NCBI RefSeq assembly: GCF_009914755.1
Contig: NC_060925.1
Strand: one strand, 5' to 3'
DNA from: the human T2T-CHM13v2.0 reference genome, Homo sapiens
Length of the DNA: 64,000 nucleotides
Made by a program: the position numbers and the translations under genes. A model generated the notes under the pieces. It was not told the DNA's origin and made no database searches. It worked only from the letters and a program-made list of their open reading frames with translations. Position 1 is the first letter of the stretch. Each line of letters begins with the position of its first letter. Below, piece by piece: positions 3,057 through 53,207 of the stretch.

Positions 3057-5865
3057 TTACAGTGAAATTGCCAGCAAGAAATTAACAACTCCCCAAGTGT
3101 TACCAATTGTGGCTAACCCTAATCTGTATTAAATTCTACAATGAATAGCTAAATGTTCACTTGATTCCCAGGATTCCCATATGTAAAATCAGAACTTGAC
3201 TGTTCTCTGATTACAAGGTCAAATCACTAAATTTTAAGTTCTAACACTTAAGTTGTGTCTATAAGTAGAGAGTAAATTGCTTTAGTTTGCTGTTGCTTGT
3301 CTATTTGGTGGGGCAGCATGCATTAATTTTGTGACTTTTGTGGCATTAAGACATCTCTTGGTAAACTAGAGCTAATGAATTATTCAATACTTTGTGGTTC
3401 ACCGTAATTTTGTAGGCACAAGATTGTACCAATATTTGAAAAAGACTCTTAGAACTGCAAAACTGAAAAGGACTCAAGTGATTATCTAGTTTGGTCCTTA
3501 ATCAGTCAATCAACCAGTATTCATTGGATGACCTACTGTGTGTCCAATCCCATGCTAGGTACCACAGAGAATACTAGACAAGTATAAGGCATGAGCTTTG
3601 TTTTTAAGTAATAAACAATATAGCAGAAGTGACACGACAAAGGCACAGGAAATATTTAGTGAACAACTTGGGATATAAATTTTGCTGTACATACTGTCAG
3701 CAATGAAGGGGTCACAGAAGCCTGTATCACATGAAAATGCTGATATTTATGTACATTTTTGTCTTTTGCTTTACCTTGACAGATACCAGAGTTGCTGGAT
3801 CTTAGCACTTTCTTTTTATTTGCCTTGGTGTCTAGGTAGAGAGCCTGGCCTGTACAAGCCAACTAACAAAATGTCTACTTAATAGGTGAATGAATGATCT
3901 CAATAGGAAATAGACCTTAATATTGACCTTGAAGTCACAGAAATGTTTAAATCAGTGTTTCCCACCCCTGGAACATCAAAAGGGGTTAGTAAAAAGAAGA
4001 TTCCATGGTCAAACATATTTGGGAACTGTTGGATTAGAAACAGCTTTCTTTACTCAGAGCTCTCCACATGCATTGGGAATCTCTAAGATTTCATTTGTTT
4101 GAGATCATACTTATTTCACCATGGAAACATTTTTTACTGAGGATTTGGTAACATTTATTTGAATCAATATACCAAAAATGTATTGAGAATCATCTAAACC
4201 ATCCAAAGAAAATGGCATTTTGAGTTGACCAATGCTTTGAAAATTGGTATAATAGAGCCCATAAAACTGTGGTTTGGGAATTTTATAGAGAGAGGAAAAA
4301 GAAAGTTCTGTCCCTCTAAGCCAGTCATGTGTGAAGGAAAGACCTGAATACTTTTGATGTTTCACATAGTAGCTTTCATAAGTGGCCATTTTGCACCTCT
4401 GGTTTAGAGAGTACTACTTTGGTCTGTTGTAATGGTTTGAGCCTTGGATGCACATCTTTGAAAATCTTTGGATGTGTCTTTTCTTAATATTCCCAAGGGG
4501 CTTGTACTTTTATTTTTTAAATGTCTTTTGCCTTGAACTGCTCAATTGGGCTTGATGAATTCTCAGCAGGCTGCTGGCCCAGACCCTTAGATGAACTGGG
4601 ACAGCTGTTGTTTGTTTTTATGTAAATCTGCACTTGTTTTAATTTTGGAGGGTTTCCTGGCATAGTTTGCAATGACAAGGATCACTTATGGGCACCAACC
4701 CACTAAAAAGGTAAAAGCGAAATACTCATCATAGTAAGTTTCTTTATTAAAAGCTTTTTCTTTTTTAGTTTAATAAATCTTTGAAATGCATAATTGTTTG
4801 TTTTCTGATCAGCTTTTGAAACAAATCTTCCAGATACTAAAGAGTTTTTAGTAAAAGGCAAAGCAGTTTAAAAATAATTGATAGTGACCTGGGGAGTTGA
4901 GTGACATTCTATTGCCATGAGGATAAAATATAAGCAGACAGTGACATATTTTGTGAATTATTTCTATTTAAACATTTGAGCCTGAGGAAACAGTTGAGGG
5001 CAGAGCTAAATCCATTTTTGCAAGTAGCTTTGATTTTAAGATAAATTTGTAAAATAATTCCTAGTACATTGTGTCATGTTCTAGCCCCACTTATAACCCT
5101 GAAATTGGTACAACTCAGGCTGCACCTGAACTCCTTCCAAAAGAGCCAGTTATTAAAAAGACCACATTATAGCACAGCCTATACCAGGACTTCAGGATGC
5201 GGGTCCTGAGGGTGGCATGGTGGAAGACCCCAGTCCATTACCTTAAACAAATGGACACAATTCCAAAGTCAAGGAACCAAGTGGTTTGATTCTGTAGAAG
5301 TGTAGCAGAAATAAACAGGAGCAAAAATCTTGGTGTGTCTGACTTGCTGTAGTTTGTCTACATGGTTCTGTGACACATGGCGTACCCTTCCCCTCCAAGA
5401 CAGACTCTGTGACCTTTTGGCTTGGATCCAATCGACCCTTCTGTTGCTCTCCCCAGAGCTTGGCTTTGCATGCTCAGGCCTGGCAAAGGGTTGCTTCTAA
5501 CAGCTCTGACTGGGATTGCACCTCCCTGTTTTCCTCATCACACAAAGCTCTATTTGTGTGGCTACTTCTTCCCAGAGCTGCTGCCTAAGTTCTAATGAAA
5601 CATTGGGACTATCTCTCAGAAAAATTAACAAACCCTTTGGGCACGCTTCTTGTAGATGATATGAACTGGATTTAAGTCACAAAATCTGTGGCTAGTGCTT
5701 GGTAATTGCTCAACTTAATTCAACACACACTTAATGAGCACCTGTTCTGTGCAGGTGCACCATGCCTGGAACTGCAGGAATTACAGATGAATAAGACCTG
5801 CCTAGTAGGAGTTAATAGATAAGCACACAAACAGCTAAGCTGAAATACAGAATGAAAGTTTATTG

Positions 5866-6900
5866 TTGATTCACTTGTTTAGCAACTAGATATTGAGCAA
5901 CTATTATGCACCAAAGCACTATTCTAGATACTGGGGATATAGTCGTGAACAGAACAGAAAAATTCTTGCTCTCAGGGAGCTTAAATTCTCGTGGAGGTGG
6001 ACAGAAGACAAATAACAAATTAACAGGAAATGTCCGTTGGTGATAAGTGCTGGAAGAAATAAAGCACAGTAAGTGTTTTGGAATTATAAGTTGAGGCGCT
6101 AGTTTGGTCAGGAAAGGTCTTTCTGATGAGGCAATGTTTACAAAGAGACCTGAATGAAGTGTGGGAGAAAGCTATGCAGAAATGTGGGAAGGACATTCCA
6201 GGCAGAGTGGATGGCCAGTGTGAGGTCCTGAGGCAAGAACCTGCTTGGCTGAAAACAGCAAACCTGCCCCTGTGGCTGGGGCAGAGTTTTAGGAGATGAC
6301 AGCTGAGGGGAAACTGGAACCAGCTTTTGTAGGGCTTTATGGACCCTGGTGAGTTTGGACTTTATTTCTATGGAGATGGGAAGCCATTAGAAGATTTTTA
6401 GCAGAAAGCAACATGACTGGATATATTTTAAGAGGAACACTGTGGCTGAGCACACACAATGGGGACCAAGAAGAGAAACCGGAAGATCAGTTAGGCAGCT
6501 CCTGCAATTATCCAGGCGGGAGGTGATGGTCTGGGGCCTCATGGCAATGTAGCAGAGGTGAGAAGACAATGGAAGTGGGATATATTGGAGGAATAGGGTC
6601 AAAAGGACTTCCTGACAGACTGTGATGTGCAGGAGTGAGGGAACAGGGGGATCGAGGATGACGCCAAGCTTTTTGGCACCCAGCTGAAAGGAGGTGAGAT
6701 TTACTGAGATGGAGAACACTGAAGGAGGAACAGGATTGAAGGCAGAATCAAGAGTTTAGGTTTGAAAGTGTCAAATTTGAGATACCTATATACTGAGATA
6801 GCTATATTTGAGATACCTTATATTGGACATACACATGGAAAATTTGAATAGGCAGTTGATATAGACATGTAGAGTTAGGGGAGAGGTCAAGGGCTATAAA
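5866..6900 (-). mobile_element. L2 LINE fragment
   Basis: Typical L2 3'-end reverse-complement motifs (tattgagcaactattatgcacc...tctagatactggggata; gagacctgaatgaag; ccaagctttttggcacccagc). Confidence 0.75.
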
Positions 6901-9900
6901 TGTACATTTGGTAAATATGTAGTAGCATTGGGACTTGTCTGGCATAGGGAGTACGAAGAACGAGCTCGCTGAGGTTCATTACGTGATTCGACTTCTGACT
7001 CTCATTGTACTGTCGAGGAAGTTAAACAAATTTCCCATTTCTAAGACCCCCTTGTCCCCTGCTGTGACTTTCCTTGTCAGTCTCTTGAAGCCTCCCGAAG
7101 GTATTCTGTCTTATTTGACTTCCTGTCTCTTAGATTGTCAAGCATACACTTGGCACATCAGCGGATTAAGCAAACCATTCATCAGGTACCTACTATGCAC
7201 CCAGGGCTGTGCTATGTGCTGTGTGATATCACAATGTAGTAAAAGGCAATAGCGGGAGTCAATGTCATTATATATCAACCAGAGAGACCATCTGTCGGAG
7301 TGAAAAGAGGAGCAGTCAGGGCCCTAGAGTCTTGTCTTTGCTGCTCTGTGACATGGGGAAGTCATCACCCATTTGGGCTCAATCTCACCACCCAGACTGG
7401 TTATCTCTAAGTTCTCTTCTAGTCCTAAACTCCTGCCACACCAAATTAGCATTCATTACATCTAGGGCTGGCTGGGAAGAGATCTAAGAGCCAATGTGGG
7501 CTGGAGGACTTGAGTAGGGGCCCTGGATGTTTGTTTTACACTCACATCTATTCAGAAAATAAGCCAATTGATATCTCCTTGTTGATTGTCCACTTGTTTT
7601 TTTTGCAGAAATTGGTGTCATCTTTAAAAGAAAAATGAAAATTATATAGCTAATGATAGCTACAATTTCTTATATATCTTGTATAGTCAGGTATTATGGT
7701 AAATACTTTAAATGGATGATCTCACTTAATGCTCATAATAGCCCTATGAATAGAGCTTTGCACAGAGGAGGAAACTGAAGCTATATATACATGTTTGCTT
7801 ATGTAAATATCCAAAATCAACCAACAAACTTACTCTAACTTAATGTTTTACTCAGATTACAGTTTTAACCTAGAAATTCTCAAAGAAATTCAATATAATT
7901 TAGATTAAACTTAAAATTTAGACCAATTGAAATAGTTGCTTATCTAGAATTTTAAGATAAAATTTTGTTAAGGGATATTGCATATTAAAAAAGAATTTCC
8001 AAACAATCTCAGAATTTGTTTCTGACAAGTTGAATACTATTTGGGAATTGGGTGTAATTTTCTCAAAGAAGTGTGTACAAGTCCAGATATGCCATGCTGC
8101 TTTTTAATTCCAATTCCCTCCTACTCAGAGATAATGAATATTAATATTTAGGGTACATCCTTCCAGAATTGTCCATGGTATTCAAATTTTCATATTACTT
8201 TAGCGATCTAGAAGTGCTATATTTCACAAGCGCCTGGCCCCTCAGAGTGGATGTATGGAGAAGAGAAGGACTTTCTCTTACCCAGTTGGTAAAAAAAAAA
8301 AAAATGCAGTTTTGCATGGTGGAGAGGGGATGGAGTCATGGCCCTTGTAATTTTCCAATGTGATGGCGCTTGCGTGGAGCCACCATCTGTTTGCAGGGCA
8401 GCTCGAGTGTTGTGCATCTGATTTCAATAAGCTGGGCAAGCAGTTCCATCCTACAGCACATTAGCAGGCAGGCACATCTGCTCTGTCTCCATGCTCCAGA
8501 AGCCAATGGAAAGTTAGTCTGCAGAAGCCCACGGTCTAGCTTGACAATAGAAGAGAGTAGTTGCTGTTGGACCCTCTCCAATTCCTATGGAGGTCAGGTT
8601 TTGACCCAGAGCCTTTTGGAGCTTAAAAGCCAGGCTGGTATTGTTCTTTATCATTAGTTGTGTTGTCTCAATTAGAAAAAAGAAATCTATGAAGTCTGGA
8701 TGCAGAATTCTCAAGTCTGGAATTCCTCCCACACATGGAAAACAAGATTCAGTCAAGGAAACAATGCCACTGTGTTTGTCACCCACGTATTTGGGGATCT
8801 GACCACAGAGAATAATTTGCTCTTTATCAGAGCGCTCTTCACCTGGGATTGATAAGAAGTTGCGGCCAAGCTACAGTCAGGAGACCTTAGTCAAGTGACT
8901 CTGGCAGCAAAGCAAACACCTTGCTCACTGTGTAACTTGAAATGCATCCCTGCCGCTGGCAGGAGTCCCGTGTTTACTGTAACATTTGGAAAATTATCAG
9001 CAATAAGATGTTTTATTGAACAATGTTTACACAATGAGCATAATAACATAAACAAGTTAAGTATTTCAATGTTAATAAGGAAAACATTCCTTCATCTTCA
9101 GACCACAAGCATTTCAGTGTAGTAAAATGATAGCCCCGGGCTAGCTCTCGGTGACTTGTAAAGTGGCTAATATTGGTCTTCACCTTTCCCTGTTCCAAAG
9201 GCTGCCCCCTCCAGTGGGACCCCACTGTATATGCTCTCTCTCATTTTCTGGCCTTTCGATTCTCTCTTGGGGCCTCCCTTCCATGGCCTGCAGGGGCTCC
9301 CAGAATGGGGGCTGAAGCTAAGTCCTAAGGAAGCTTCATGTGAATTAGAAGAAATGCCCCTTTCTTAGGCAGAGGCCGCTCCTTGCCAGGGGCATGGTTT
9401 GGTGAGCTGAGCCCCTGCTCATCCCCTTAGCTAGATGCCCTAGACAGGACACAACCTGCACAGCTTTAATGGTGACTGCCCACAGTCCCTCTACCGAGAA
9501 TTGGACAGTGCTTCCCCTCCAGGCTTTCTCACTGACTCTCACTGTCTGGGCCAGGACCCTCAAATTATACTTTGCCAGCGGTGGGGATGGGGTCAATGGA
9601 TAACCCCAGGCTCCAAGGCAGTGTCAGGAAAAGGAGTAGCATGTGAGCTGTGCCGACAGGCCACAGCATAGGGCGAAGGAGGAAGCAAGACCTGGGAGGG
9701 GGCAAAACTTCTCTGCAAAGCAGCCAAGGGCCATCTTCATGTCCACCCACCTTCCAACAGTCTGTCTGCTCACCCAGCACCAGCCTCCACCCCTATATAC
9801 TCTGTGATCTCCAGCCACCTCTCCTCTTTGTTGTTACTTCTCTACTCTATGTAGAGCCTTCAAATAGCAACTTTCTGCATCACCACATCCCCACCTCCCT

Positions 9901-50327: not shown

Positions 50328-50338
50328 TCAACATTCTT
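50328..50338. repeat. Target-site duplication tcaacattctt (second copy 52930-52940)
   Basis: Identical 11-mers flank the whole LTR12-SVA composite. The empty site ttctt/aaag fits the L1 endonuclease TTTT/AA preference. Confidence 0.92.
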
Positions 50339-50524
50339 TTTTTTTTCCTATATAAAAAATTTATTAAGAGACAAAACAGTTAAGCTGAAAACCTTTAAAA
50401 ATAGGTCTTACTGTATTTGTGGGTATTGATCCCTGGTCATTAGGTGACAAGTGTTGGAGAAAGGGATGCCATAGGGCATAAATAATCCTTCAATGATTTT
50501 TTTTTTCTCTTTCTTTTTTTTTTT

Positions 50525-52266
50525 CTGTCTTCAGGCATCTGTTTAACAAAGCACATCTTGCATCGCCCTTAATCCATTTAACCCTGAGTTGACACAGCAC
50601 ATGTTTCAGAGAGCAGGGGTTTGGGGGTAAGGTTATAGATTAACAGCATCCCAAGGCAGAAGAATTTTTCTTAGTACAGAACAAAATGGAGTCTCCTATG
50701 TCTACTTCTTTCTACACAGACACAGTAACAATCTGATCTCTCTTTCTTTTCCCCACATTTCCCCCTTTTCTTTTCGACAAAACTGCCATCGTCATCATGG
50801 CCCATTCTCGATGGTCGCTGTCTCTTCGGAGCTGTTGGGAACACTTCCCAGACGGGGCAGCCTGGCAGAGGTGCTCCTCACTTCCCAGACGGGGTGGCCA
50901 GGCAGAGGCGCTCCTCACTTCCCAGATGGGTTGGTGGCTGGACAGAGGCGCTCCCCACCTCCCAGACGGGGCGGCTGGGCAGAGCCGCTCCCCACCTCCC
51001 AGATGGGGTGGCTGGGCAGAGGCGCTCCTCACCTCCCAGATGAAGGGCAGCCAGGCACAGGCGCCCCTCACTTCCCAGGCGGGGCAGCCGGGCAGAGACG
51101 TCCCTCACCTCCCAGACGGGGTGGCGGCTGGGCAGAGGCGCTCCTCACTTCCCAGATGGGGTGGCGGCTGGGCAGAGATGCCCCTCACCTCCCAGACGGG
51201 GCGGCCAGGCAGAGGTGCCCACTTCCCAGATGGGGCGGCCGGGTAGAGGTGCTCCCCACCTCCCAGACAAAGGGCCACTGGGCAGAGGCGCCCCTCATTT
51301 CCCAGGCGGGGCAGCCGGGCAGAGGTGCTCCTCACCTCCCAGACGGGGCGGCCGTGTAGAGGCGCTCCTCACCTCCCAGATGGGGTGGCCGTGCAGAGGC
51401 ACTCCTGACCTCCCAGACGGGGCTGCCTCATCTCGCAGATGGGGTGGCTGGGCAGAGACGCCCCTCACCTCCCAGACGGGGCAGCCAGGCAGAGGCGCCC
51501 ACTTCCCAGACGGGGCGGCCAGGCAGAGGCGCTCCCCACCTCCCAGACGAAGGGCGGCCAGGCAGAGGCGCTCCTCACTTCCCAGGTGGGGCGGCTGGGC
51601 AGAGGCACCCCTCACCTCCCAGATGGGGCAGCTGGGCAGAGACGCCCCTCACTTCCCAGACGGGGCGGCCATGTAGAGGCGCTCCTCACCTCCCAGACGG
51701 GGCGGCCGGACAGAGGCGCTCCTCACCTCCCAGATGGGGCAGCCGGGCAGAGGCGCTCCTCACTTCCCAGACTGGGTGGCCGGGCAGAGGTGCGCCTCAC
51801 ATCCGAGACAATGGGCAGTCAGGCAGAGATGCTCCTCACTTCCTAGGTGGGGTGGCGGCCGGGCAGAGGCGCTCCTCACTTCCCAGATGGGGGCAGCCAG
51901 GAAGAGGCGCTCCTCCCTTCCCATTTGGGGCAGCCGGGCAGAGGTGCTCCTCACTTCCTCCCAGATGGTGCGGCTGGGCAGAGGCACTCCTCACTTCCCA
52001 GAGGGGGTGGCCAGGCAGAGGTGCTCCTCACTTCCCATTCGGGGCAGCCGGGCAGAGGCGCTCCTCACTTCCTCCCAGACTGTGCGGCCGGGCAGAGGCG
52101 CTCCTCACATCCCAGACGATGGGCGACCAGGCAGAGACACTCCTCACTTCCTAGATGGGGTGGCGGCCGGGCAGAGGCACTCCTCACTTCCCAGATGGGG
52201 CGACCAGGCAGAGGGGCTCCTCACATCCCAGATGATGGGCGGCCAGGCAGAGACGCTGCTCACTTC
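50525..52266 (-). mobile_element. SVA (old SVA_A/B-type): VNTR 50844-52266 plus 3'-truncated SINE-R 50525-50843; no hexamer or Alu-like domain
   Basis: SINE-R reverse complement (gcatctgtttaacaaagcacatcttgca...gacacagcacatgtttcagagagc) retains the gtcgctgtctcttcg segment absent from younger SVAs. GC-rich ~40-bp VNTR units gcagaggcgctcctcacttcccagacgggg. Confidence 0.93.
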
Positions 52267-52527
52267 CTTTTCACCTTCTTGGCTCCAGCTCCTTTTCAGG
52301 CCTCTTGGCTCTTCTTTCCTGTTTGAGAAGGGGGATGCTTCCTCATCCTTGCCACCAGAGTTCTCACACCTGTCCTTACACTTTCCTCAGAAATTTCTAT
52401 TCAGTGGAAATCCTGTTGCTTGGATTTCAATCTTGCCATCTTTACTGATGCTCTCTGGAGCCACTGCTGCAGAAGGGGTGATAGGCTTCAATCGTACATC
52501 ATGGCAAGTAGTGGATTGCTGTCCCTA

Positions 52528-52928
52528 TGTGTCCGGAATTGGTGGGTTCTTGGTCTCACTGACTTCAAGAATGAAGCCGCGGACCCTCGCGGTGAGTGTT
52601 ACAGTTCCTAAAGGCGGCGTGTCCGGAGTTGTTTCCTTCTGATGTTTGGATGTGTTCGGAATTTCTTCCTTCTGCTGGGGTTCGTGGTCTCGCTGGCTCA
52701 GGAATGAAGCCATGGACCTTCGCGGTGAGTGTTACAGCTCCTAAGGCAGTGCATCTGGAGTTGTTCATTCCTCCCGGTGGGTTCGTGGTGAAGCTGCAGA
52801 CCTTCGCGGTGAGTGTTACAGCTCATAAAGGCAGTGTAGACCCAAAGAGTGAGCAGCAGCAAGATTTATTGCAAAGAGTGAAAGAACAAAGCTTCCACAA
52901 TGTGGAAGGGGACCCCAGCGGGGTTGCC
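52528..52928 (-). mobile_element. LTR12 (ERV9) R-U5 portion carried as a 5' transduction
   Basis: tgtgtccggaattggtgggttcttggtctcactgacttcaagaatgaagccgcggaccctcgcggtgagtgttacag...ggggaccccagcggggttgcc. Includes the LTR 3' terminus; U3 is absent. Confidence 0.92.
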
Positions 52929-53207
52929 CTCAACATTCTTAAAGAAAAGAATTTTCAAGCCAGAATTTCATATCCAGCCAAACTAAGCTTCATGAGTGAA
53001 GGAGAAATAAAATCCTTTATAGAGAAGCAAATGCTGAGAGATTTTGTCACAACCAGGCCTGCCTTACAAGAGCTCCTGAAGGAAGCACTAAATATGGAAA
53101 GGAAAAGCCAGTACCAGCCACTACAAAAACATACCAAATGGTAAAGACCATCGACACTATGCAGAAACTGCATCAACTAATGGGCAAAATAACCAGCTAG
53201 CATCATA

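What the first reader, a model, noticed from the sequence alone, without database searches (positions are those of the whole stretch)
50328..52940. Chimeric LTR12-initiated, spliced SVA retrocopy with both 5' and 3' transductions inside one TSD
Seen (minus strand, 5' to 3'): LTR12 R-U5 (52928-52528), 261 bp unique (52527-52267), SVA VNTR (52266-50844), truncated SINE-R (to 50525), A-tract 1 (50524-50497), 150 bp unique, AATAAA, A-tract 2 (50346-50339). One 11-bp TSD at an L1-endonuclease-type site encloses all of it, so it arrived as a single mRNA. The SVA hexamer and Alu-like domains are replaced by an ERV9-LTR-derived leader. Established: 5'-transducing SVA groups exist (e.g. MAST2-SVA_F1). 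Inference: a source locus where an LTR12 promoter drove an SVA_A passenger mobilised by L1, possibly a small composite family. It may already be among catalogued transduction groups; I cannot check.
Basis: partly seen in the sequence, partly recalled or inferred. Interest (0 to 1): 0.82.

Follow-up and report, generated by a model that had tools for sequence, protein, structure and literature searches.

The report
Retrocopy of an LTR12–lncRNA–SVA hybrid transcript
This is one old, dead-on-arrival L1-made copy of a spliced chromosome 3 transcript that began in an ERV9 LTR and ran through an SVA no longer at its source; it is a tidy example of a known process, not a new element family.

Summary
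An 11-bp target-site duplication (AAGAATGTTGA) inside an L1 encloses, on the minus strand, these parts:
- an LTR12-type R-U5 piece
- 261 bp of unique sequence
- a 1.4-kb SVA VNTR
- a 3'-truncated SINE-R
- an A-tract
- 150 bp of unique sequence with AATAAA
- a short A-tail

I found the source on chromosome 3 of the same assembly.
- It carries a 1,381-bp solo LTR with a 4-bp TSD. The chr1 copy starts 29 nt downstream of its AATAAAAG box, after one untemplated G.
- The "261 bp" is two exons, with a 1.9-kb intron removed at CAG|GTAAGT and AAAG|G.
- The exon 2 donor (AAAG|GTGAGA) is joined to an SVA VNTR unit that follows an AG wherever a homologous unit could be checked.
- The 150 bp lies 9.2 kb further downstream on chr3.

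So a single spliced RNA with 5' and 3' transductions is well supported.

- CHM13 has no SVA at the chr3 source, so the parent allele is lost or unfixed.
- Each unique segment has only the chr1 and chr3 copies, so there are no siblings and no composite family.

The copy carries no U3 promoter. The mechanism (SVA exon trapping plus read-through) is already in print, so interest is modest.

The parts
52930..52940 (-). 5' copy of the 11-bp target-site duplication AAGAATGTTGA, inside an L1
   Evidence: sequence; the two flanks overlap by 11-12 nt in 5 of 5 other L1 copies.
52929..52929 (-). Single untemplated G at the 5' end of the insert, as expected when a capped RNA is copied to its end
   Evidence: chr3 has T at this position. 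[quoted passage not shown]
52528..52928 (-). R-U5 part of an LTR12/ERV9-type LTR (401 nt), running from the transcription-start region to the LTR's terminal CA. U3 is absent.
   Evidence: at least 3,940 candidate copies in the genome. The best is chr3 155925474-155925873 at 94%, the next at 88%. Alignment; source LTR anatomy.
52455..52527 (-). Non-LTR part of source exon 1: chr3 flank of the solo LTR up to the CAG|GTAAGT donor. The last G (52455) could instead be the first base of exon 2.
   Evidence: 3 mismatches in 73.
52267..52454 (-). Source exon 2 (chr3 155923301-155923489), ending at the AAAG|GTGAGA donor
   Evidence: 4 mismatches in 188.
50842..52266 (-). SVA VNTR. Its first unit begins exactly after the position of an AG in homologous units.
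   Evidence: period 37, 37.2 copies; upstream AG at the Alu-like/VNTR border of L021 and L023, and in 4 of 4 other units of this same array.
50525..50841 (-). SINE-R, 3'-truncated. It lacks its own AATAAA and ends at a point shared with 10 other SVA copies.
50497..50524 (-). A-tract 1 (A11 GAAAGAG A10): the A-tail of the parent SVA
   Evidence: compared with the L021 tail.
50347..50496 (-). 3' transduction, matching chr3 155913936-155914083. AATAAA lies at 50365-50360, 12 nt before the end.
   Evidence: 1 mismatch in 149.
50339..50346 (-). Terminal A-tail of 8 A (two more A are ambiguous with the TSD)
50328..50338 (-). 3' copy of the TSD AAGAATGTTGA

Best explanation
This is a single L1-mediated retrocopy of a hybrid RNA made at one chromosome 3 locus (CHM13 chr3, about 155.914-155.927 Mb, minus strand).

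Proposed sequence of events:
1. A solo LTR12/ERV9 LTR fired from its own promoter.
2. The transcript left the LTR, used a CAG|GTAAGT donor 73 nt beyond it, and spliced to a 189-nt exon 2.
3. From the exon 2 donor it spliced into an AG acceptor at (or at a repeat of) the first VNTR unit of a sense-oriented SVA lying about 9.2 kb downstream. The SVA's hexamer and Alu-like domains were thereby skipped.
4. That SVA had a truncated SINE-R with no polyadenylation signal. Transcription ran through its A-tail into chr3 DNA and ended at the next AATAAA, 150 nt on.
5. L1 ORF2p nicked a TTT/AAGAAT site inside an L1 upstream of NGF and copied the whole capped RNA.

Shown by the sequence: the source locus, the exon borders, the TSD and the full-length 5' end.

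Inferred:
- The parent SVA sat immediately upstream of TCATTGAAGG on chr3. It is now lost or was never fixed, since CHM13 has none there.
- The event happened in the germline or early embryo.
- The copy has always been inert, because the U3 promoter is not part of the RNA.
For: Source locus
- The 261-bp segment maps as two blocks 1.9 kb apart on chr3, and the 150-bp segment maps 9.2 kb further downstream on the same strand. Nothing else in the genome matches.
- chr3 shows CAG|GTAAGT after block 1, AAAG|G before block 2 and AAAG|GTGAGA after block 2.
- Block 1 is contiguous with a 1,381-bp solo LTR. It has TG..CA ends, a 4-bp TSD CAGG, 4 CCAAT motifs and an AATAAAAG box 29 nt upstream of the first copied base.
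- The chr1 LTR piece is closest to this chr3 LTR: 94% against 88% or less for the other 38 scored copies.

Splice into the SVA
- The SVA part starts with GAAGTGAG. That motif follows an AG with a pyrimidine-rich run at the Alu-like/VNTR border of two full-length SVAs, and in 4 of 4 other units of the insert's own VNTR.

Insertion hallmarks
- 11-bp TSD, a reconstructed empty L1 site in 5 of 5 comparisons, an A-tail and an untemplated 5' G.

Literature
- Splicing of upstream exons into SVAs, and combined 5' and 3' transductions, are described in PMC12593883, PMC6139936 and PMC3287187 (passages only).
- Solo LTR12C LTRs are the leading LTR promoters of chimeric transcripts in oocyte and testis (PMC8767690, passages).
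Against: - CHM13 chr3 155908001-155932000 contains no VNTR or SINE-R match. The central element of the model is therefore inferred, not seen.
- The inferred SVA/chr3 junction (CAATTT|TCATTG) is a poor L1-endonuclease site.
- The exon 1/exon 2 junction in chr1 has one G where canonical splicing predicts two.
- The acceptor cannot be pinned to the Alu-like/VNTR border. The same unit type recurs inside VNTRs, and in L023 an internal unit scores as well as the border unit.
- The LTR part differs from chr3 by 6% against about 2% in the unique parts. The 26 differences split 13:13 between the two lineages, and 11 of the 24 substitutions in the pairwise alignment are in CpG context.
Confidence: 0.8

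Rival explanations
1. Two steps at chr1. A plain processed retrocopy of the chr3 LTR12-driven non-coding RNA (exon 1, exon 2, terminal exon) inserted first. A 5'-truncated SVA later inserted into it, with a small target-site deletion.
For: - chr3 has a good candidate native acceptor (pyrimidine run then ACAG|GAGGAG) 18 nt upstream of the point where the 150-bp match begins. A native three-exon RNA is therefore plausible, and the missing 18 nt could be a target-site deletion.
- Target-site deletions occur with SVA insertions (PMC3287187).
- No SVA is present at chr3.
Against: - The SVA part has no TSD of its own.
- Its 5' end would have to fall by chance exactly at the last base of exon 2, and also exactly after the AG position of a VNTR unit.
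- Its 3' junction is not at an L1-endonuclease-type site either.
Confidence: 0.05
2. RNA recombination during one reverse-transcription event. L1 reverse transcriptase started on the poly(A) of the chr3 RNA and copied 150 nt. It then switched to the A-tail of an unrelated SVA RNA, and switched back to the chr3 RNA near the end of exon 2.
For: - This would explain why chr3 has no SVA and why the A-tract/150-bp junction is not an endonuclease site.
- There is 2-3 nt of microhomology (AAAAG-GA) at the exon 2/VNTR junction.
Against: - It needs two switches, the second returning to the same RNA.
- The 5' junction coincides to the base with a GT donor on one side and an AG-preceded unit on the other. 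That is the signature of splicing, not of random switching.
Confidence: 0.08
3. Founder or member of a mobile LTR12-SVA composite family.
For: Families founded by one exon-to-SVA splice exist: SVA_F1 and pt_SVA_D6 (PMC6139936).
Against: - Each unique segment has only the chr1 copy and the chr3 source in CHM13, with all candidates scored.
- The copy carries R-U5 only, with no U3 promoter.
- It lacks the hexamer and Alu-like part. Removing these lowered trans-mobilisation to near the pseudogene level in PMC3287187.
Confidence: 0.02

Closest known systems
SVA exon trapping / 5' transduction by splicing (SVA_F1 with MAST2 exon 1; chimpanzee pt_SVA_D6 with STK40 exon 1; polymorphic MRPS18A, LINC02916 and UQCRC1 cases)
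   Same: Upstream exons are joined at their exact donor to an AG acceptor inside a sense SVA, and the product is retrotransposed by L1 within one TSD (PMC6139936; PMC12593883). The parent SVA of SVA_F1 is also described there as a polymorphic element, and an extinct source is discussed for pt_SVA_D6.
   Different: - The acceptor here lies at the start of a VNTR unit, so the whole Alu-like domain is lost. [quoted passage not shown] Whether it is the same AG was not tested.
- The leader is a promoter-less LTR R-U5 plus non-coding exons, not a CpG-rich first exon that can act as an internal promoter.
- There are no progeny.
SVA 3' transduction by read-through
   Same: The SVA A-tail is followed by source-locus DNA that ends at a downstream AATAAA plus a new A-tail.
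   Different: Read-through was obligatory here, because the SINE-R is truncated upstream of its own signal. A chr14 copy with the same truncation also carries a 34-nt transduction.
LTR12/ERV9 solo-LTR-driven chimeric transcripts
   Same: A solo LTR with CCAAT repeats acts as the start site of a spliced non-coding transcript. PMC8767690 reports LTR12C as the top LTR promoter of such transcripts in oocyte and testis.
   Different: Here the transcript is known only from its retrocopy; no RNA data were examined. The name LTR12 is recalled, supported by copy number and motifs. It was not tested against a repeat library.
Processed pseudogene (retrocopy) of a non-coding RNA
   Same: It is intronless, 5'-complete, polyadenylated, TSD-flanked, promoter-less and single-copy.
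   Different: More than half of its length is SVA sequence trapped by splicing.

Membership tests
L1-mediated (target-primed) retrotransposition insertion | Target-site duplication of 4-20 bp flanking the whole insert | tested here: met
   11 bp, AAGAATGTTGA. The empty L1 site was reconstructed in 5 of 5 L1 copies.
L1-mediated (target-primed) retrotransposition insertion | Insertion at a TTTT/AA-like endonuclease site, with a 3' A-tail | tested here: met
   The site is TTT/AAGAAT and the tail is 8-10 A. The consensus is quoted in PMC3287187.
L1-mediated (target-primed) retrotransposition insertion | The copy lacks the introns of its source | tested here: met
   1.9 kb, and at least 9.2 kb, of chr3 DNA are missing at GT/AG borders.
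Canonical SVA element | 5' CCCTCT hexamer repeat and Alu-like domain | tested here: not met
   Both are absent from the insert. Both are present in the full-length comparators L021 and L023.
Canonical SVA element | GC-rich VNTR of 36-42 / 49-51 bp units | tested here: met
   TRF finds period 37 and 37.2 copies at 50842-52267.
Canonical SVA element | Complete SINE-R with its own AATAAA | tested here: not met
   About 317-336 nt of SINE-R match other SVAs at 96-98%. The domain then stops at ...GAAGACAG + A-run, where untruncated copies continue.
5'-transducing SVA group (family founded by a splice, like SVA_F1) | Upstream exon joined at its donor to an AG acceptor in the SVA | tested here: met
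   The exon 2 donor is AAAG|GTGAGA on chr3. An AG lies before the homologous unit in L021, in L023 and in 4 of 4 units of the insert itself.
5'-transducing SVA group (family founded by a splice, like SVA_F1) | Several members sharing the junction, each with a different TSD | tested here: not met
   There is no other copy of the 261-bp or 150-bp segment in CHM13.
5'-transducing SVA group (family founded by a splice, like SVA_F1) | A source locus that holds the SVA downstream of the trapped exons | tested here: not met
   No VNTR or SINE-R match in chr3 155908001-155932000 of CHM13. Other haplotypes and apes could not be tested.
LTR12 / ERV9 LTR | A multi-copy LTR with TG..CA ends, a short TSD when solo, and CCAAT-bearing U3 repeats upstream of a TATA-like box | tested here: met
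   At least 3,940 candidate copies. The chr3 LTR is 1,381 bp with TG..CA ends, TSD CAGG, 4 CCAAT and an AATAAAAG box. The NF-Y CCAAT motif in LTR12 is described in PMC8767690.
LTR12 / ERV9 LTR | Match to the curated LTR12 consensus, and the subfamily (C, D, E...) | not testable with these tools
   No repeat library is held, so the family name rests on recall.
SVA_A subfamily | Diagnostic SINE-R positions of SVA_A | not tested
   No subfamily consensus was available. The SINE-R tree gives no supported placement.

The most novel reading that the evidence does not exclude
The chr1 insert may be the only surviving record of an SVA allele that once sat in the last exon or intron of an LTR12-driven chr3 non-coding gene and has since vanished, at least from CHM13. 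If so, it is an orphan daughter of an extinct hybrid transcription unit. It would also show that L1 mobilised an SVA RNA stripped of both its hexamer and its whole Alu-like domain, through an acceptor at the VNTR start that has not, to my knowledge, been described. That last point rests on recall and on searches only.
Probability: 0.55. Interest if true: 0.4.

Novelty: new member of a known kind. Interest (0 to 1): 0.3.

Why it matters
It is a clean, fully dissectable case of three known processes combined in one RNA: LTR-promoted transcription, exon-to-SVA splicing and 3' read-through.

It gives a concrete reason why some spliced SVA chimeras found families and this one did not. SVA_F1 and pt_SVA_D6 carry a first exon described as able to act as an internal promoter (shown for SVA_F1, assumed for pt_SVA_D6; PMC6139936). 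This copy received only the promoter-less R-U5 of an LTR, and it lost the Alu-like domain.

It also documents a parent SVA allele that is absent from the reference. Ape T2T assemblies could test that directly.

It has no evident bearing on NGF. The insert lies in introns of two non-coding genes and overlaps none of the exons in the hub's table.

Tried and rejected
- A family of siblings: rejected.
- An SVA still present at the chr3 source: not found in the 24 kb examined.
- One lineage of SINE-R-truncated SVAs that would explain the truncation: rejected. The 11 copies with the same end point are scattered over the SINE-R tree, some only 83-92% identical to the insert. This looks like a recurrent 3'-end site.
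- The full-length chr1:162.84 Mb SVA (L021) as direct parent of the lost chr3 SVA: unresolved.
  - It shares the truncation point and the A11-12 GAAAGA tail pattern.
  - It also shares the first-unit variants GAGCAGC and CATCATC.
  - The tree fork holding both has only 90/83 support and includes three untruncated copies.
- Gene conversion as the cause of the higher LTR divergence: not needed. The 26 differences split 13:13.
- Literature: Hancks 2009 and Damert 2009 are not held, by DOI or by PMC id. I therefore could not check whether this insertion is already listed in those catalogues or in the reference-SVA tables of PMC10681720.
- Searches found no paper describing an LTR12/ERV9-SVA chimera.
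- No ape genome is held, so orthologous sites were not examined.
Full report
**Observation**

In order:

| Window coordinates | Feature |
|---|---|
| 52940-52930 | AAGAATGTTGA (5' TSD copy) |
| 52929 | one G |
| 52928-52528 | 401 nt of LTR-type sequence |
| 52527-52267 | 261 nt of non-repetitive sequence |
| 50842-52267 | GC-rich tandem array, period 37, 37.2 copies (TRF) |
| about 50841-50525 | SINE-R sequence |
| 50524-50497 | interrupted A-tract |
| 50496-50347 | 150 nt of non-repetitive sequence |
| 50365-50360 | AATAAA (within the 150 nt) |
| 50346-50339 | eight A |
| 50338-50328 | AAGAATGTTGA again (3' TSD copy) |

Both flanks are L1 sequence. I took 300 nt on each side and aligned them to five other L1 copies. 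These came from 40 scored of 3,890 candidates. In 5 of 5 copies the left flank ended 11-12 nt after the position where the right flank began. The site was therefore one continuous L1, and the 11-mer is a true target-site duplication. The cut site reads TTT/AAGAAT, close to the L1 endonuclease consensus TTTT/AA quoted in PMC3287187 (passages).

**The source locus**

The window's own assembly could be searched.

- The 261-nt segment has only three matches, all three candidates scored. One is itself. The other two are blocks on chromosome 3: nt 2-73 at C3:155925401-155925472 and nt 73-261 at C3:155923301-155923489, both on the minus strand.
- The 150-nt segment has two matches: itself and C3:155913936-155914083, minus strand, 99% identical.

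I fetched chr3 155908001-155932000 and read the borders.

- Block 1 is directly contiguous with a complete solo LTR, C3:155925474-155926854.
  - It is 1,381 bp with TG...CA ends and is flanked by a 4-bp duplication, CAGG.
  - It has four CCAAT motifs in a repeated U3 region and an AATAAAAG box.
- Block 1 ends at CAG|GTAAGT.
- Block 2 is preceded by a pyrimidine run and AAAG|G, and it ends at AAAG|GTGAGA.
- The chr1 copy starts 29 nt downstream of the first base of the AATAAAAG box. It is preceded by a G that chr3 does not template.
- Extra G residues at the 5' ends of L1-mobilised SVA copies are reported in PMC3287187.

The LTR segment is a high-copy repeat, with at least 3,940 candidates of which 40 were scored. 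Its closest relative is this chr3 LTR at 94% identity, while the other 38 scored copies are at 85-89%.

The name LTR12/ERV9 is from recall; no repeat library is held. The CCAAT (NF-Y) motif, and the statement that solo LTR12C LTRs are the most frequent LTR promoters of chimeric transcripts in oocyte and testis, come from PMC8767690 (passages).

**The SVA part and the splice**

The SVA portion begins GAAGTGAGCAGCG... immediately after the last base of exon 2.

- Two full-length SVAs were fetched for comparison: L021 (chr1:162.84 Mb) and L023 (chr16:61.78 Mb).
  - In both, the Alu-like domain ends in a pyrimidine-rich run followed by ...TCTAG.
  - The first VNTR unit then starts GAAGTGAG.
- Inside the insert's own VNTR, the four other occurrences of GAAGTGAG are each preceded by AG: CTAG twice and GGAG twice.
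- The 5' junction is therefore a GT donor on one side and an AG-preceded unit on the other. That is the signature of splicing.
- The first 80 nt of the insert's SVA part match the border unit of L021 best (94% over 72 nt). In L023, however, an internal unit scores as well as the border unit. I therefore cannot say whether the acceptor was at the Alu-like/VNTR border or in a repeat of that unit further in.
- Either way, the hexamer and the whole Alu-like domain were spliced out.

**The truncated SINE-R**

The SINE-R matches other SVAs at 96-98% over its first 336 nt (40 scored of 1,880 candidates). It stops at ...GAAGACAG followed by A-tract 1, where untruncated copies continue.

- A pattern search found 11 copies in CHM13, this one included, with an A-run at that same point, and none for the reversed control pattern.
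- On a SINE-R tree these copies are scattered, and some are only 83-92% identical to the insert. This is a recurrent 3'-end site rather than one lineage.
- Such an SVA has no AATAAA of its own, so read-through to the next genomic signal is expected. A chr14 copy with the same truncation also carries a 34-nt 3' transduction with AATAAA.

**The missing parent**

BLAST of the whole insert against the 24 kb of chr3 finds the LTR, both exons and the 150-nt segment, but no VNTR or SINE-R.

- On chr3 the 150-nt segment is preceded by ...ACAG|GAGGAGACTATACAATTT and then TCATTGAAGG.
- There is no AG directly before the matched part, so the A-tract/150-nt junction is not a splice.
- The parent SVA must therefore have abutted TCATTGAAGG.
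- The simplest reading is that a sense SVA insertion allele existed there when the RNA was made and was later lost or never fixed.
- This step is inferred, not shown.

Points against the reading:

- CAATTT|TCATTG is a poor endonuclease site.
- The exon 1/exon 2 junction in chr1 has one G where CAG|G... predicts two.

**Rivals**

- *Later SVA insertion into a plain retrocopy.* This would need the SVA's truncation point to fall exactly after an AG position, its target to be exactly the last base of exon 2, no TSD, and an 18-nt deletion. I give it 0.05.
- *Template switching.* L1 reverse transcriptase would move from the chr3 RNA to an SVA RNA and back. This explains the empty chr3 site and the non-endonuclease junction. 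It needs two switches, and it does not explain why the 5' junction has donor and acceptor signatures. I give it 0.08.
- *A mobile composite family.* This is contradicted on three counts, and I give it 0.02.
  - There are no siblings.
  - The copy has no U3.
  - It lacks the 5' SVA part, whose removal lowered trans-mobilisation to about pseudogene level in PMC3287187.

**Age**

Differences between chr1 and chr3:

| Segment | Mismatches |
|---|---|
| Exon 1 (non-LTR part) | 3 of 73 |
| Exon 2 | 4 of 188 |
| 3' segment | 1 of 149 |
| LTR | 24 of 400 (11 in CpG context) |

- The unique parts differ by about 2%.
- I used ten other LTR copies only to polarise the 26 differing columns. Thirteen changes fall on each lineage, so nothing unusual happened to either copy.
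- About 2% pairwise lies between the human-chimpanzee and human-orangutan divergence values as I recall them. The insertion is probably shared with the African apes. This was not tested.

**Comparison with what is known**

It works like the published SVA exon-trapping and 5'-transduction events, combined with a 3' transduction.

- Both kinds, and elements with both, are stated to exist in PMC3287187.
- Canonical splicing of non-coding exons, with read-through or splicing into an SVA, is described in PMC12593883.

It is not a member of a transduction family, because two defining features were tested and not met: there are no other members, and the reference has no source SVA. It is not a canonical SVA, because it has no hexamer, no Alu-like domain and an incomplete SINE-R.

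What is particular to this case:

- an LTR start site
- loss of the whole Alu-like domain through an acceptor at a VNTR unit
- an obligatory read-through caused by the truncated SINE-R
- a vanished parent

I could not check whether the insertion is already listed in the 2009 catalogues or in reference-SVA tables. Three full-text searches found no description of an LTR12/ERV9-SVA chimera.

**Verdict**

The single-RNA interpretation is supported, and the source locus has been found. The family idea is refuted for CHM13, and the source SVA is missing.

It is a new member of a known kind, of modest interest (0.3). The insert overlaps none of the exons listed for NGF-AS1 or LOC112268234 in the hub's table. 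It lies in their introns.

Noticed in passing
window 50525-50547; loci L025-L034: Eleven SVA copies in CHM13, this one included, end their SINE-R at the same point (...GAAG[A/G]CA) followed by an A-run. They are scattered over the SINE-R tree, so this looks like a recurrent premature 3'-end site. No canonical AATAAA is visible just upstream.
   Followed up: partly
L021 (G000:C1:162841001-162850000, minus strand), oriented positions about 4903-6775: This is a full-length SVA with TSD AAAGAAATAGGCCC and the same SINE-R truncation. Its tail reads A12 G AAAGA..., resembling the insert's A11 GAAAGAG A10. Its first VNTR unit shares the variants GAGCAGC and CATCATC with the insert. It may be the parent or a sibling of the lost chr3 SVA, but the tree does not resolve this.
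   Followed up: partly
L022 (G000:C14:59919001-59928000, minus strand), oriented positions about 5570-7010: This is a 5'-truncated SVA with the same SINE-R truncation, a 34-nt 3' transduction containing AATAAA, a second A-tail, and TSD GGGACAAAGAAGG.
   Followed up: no
L031 and L032 (G000:C18:11777101 and 11810846): Two truncated-SINE-R SVAs lie 34 kb apart. They share an A18 tail followed by the same 12-13 nt (GGGAGC[A/G]GGCTA), after which their flanks diverge. This could be a micro-transduction or a partial duplication.
   Followed up: no
window 52455; L007 about 5489: The exon 1/exon 2 junction of the retrocopy has one G where the canonical chr3 donor and acceptor predict GG. The cause could be a 1-nt loss at or after reverse transcription.
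   Followed up: no
L006 about 6084-6110 (chr3, minus strand): A pyrimidine run and ACAG|GAGGAG lie 18 nt upstream of the 150-nt segment, with AATAAA at its end. This looks like a native terminal exon of the LTR12-driven chr3 transcript, into which the lost SVA would have inserted. No annotation or RNA data were available.
   Followed up: no
window 52528-52928 against L007: The LTR part of the retrocopy differs from its source by 6%, against about 2% in the adjacent unique exons. Eleven of the 24 substitutions are in CpG context, and the changes are split 13:13 between the two copies.
   Followed up: yes
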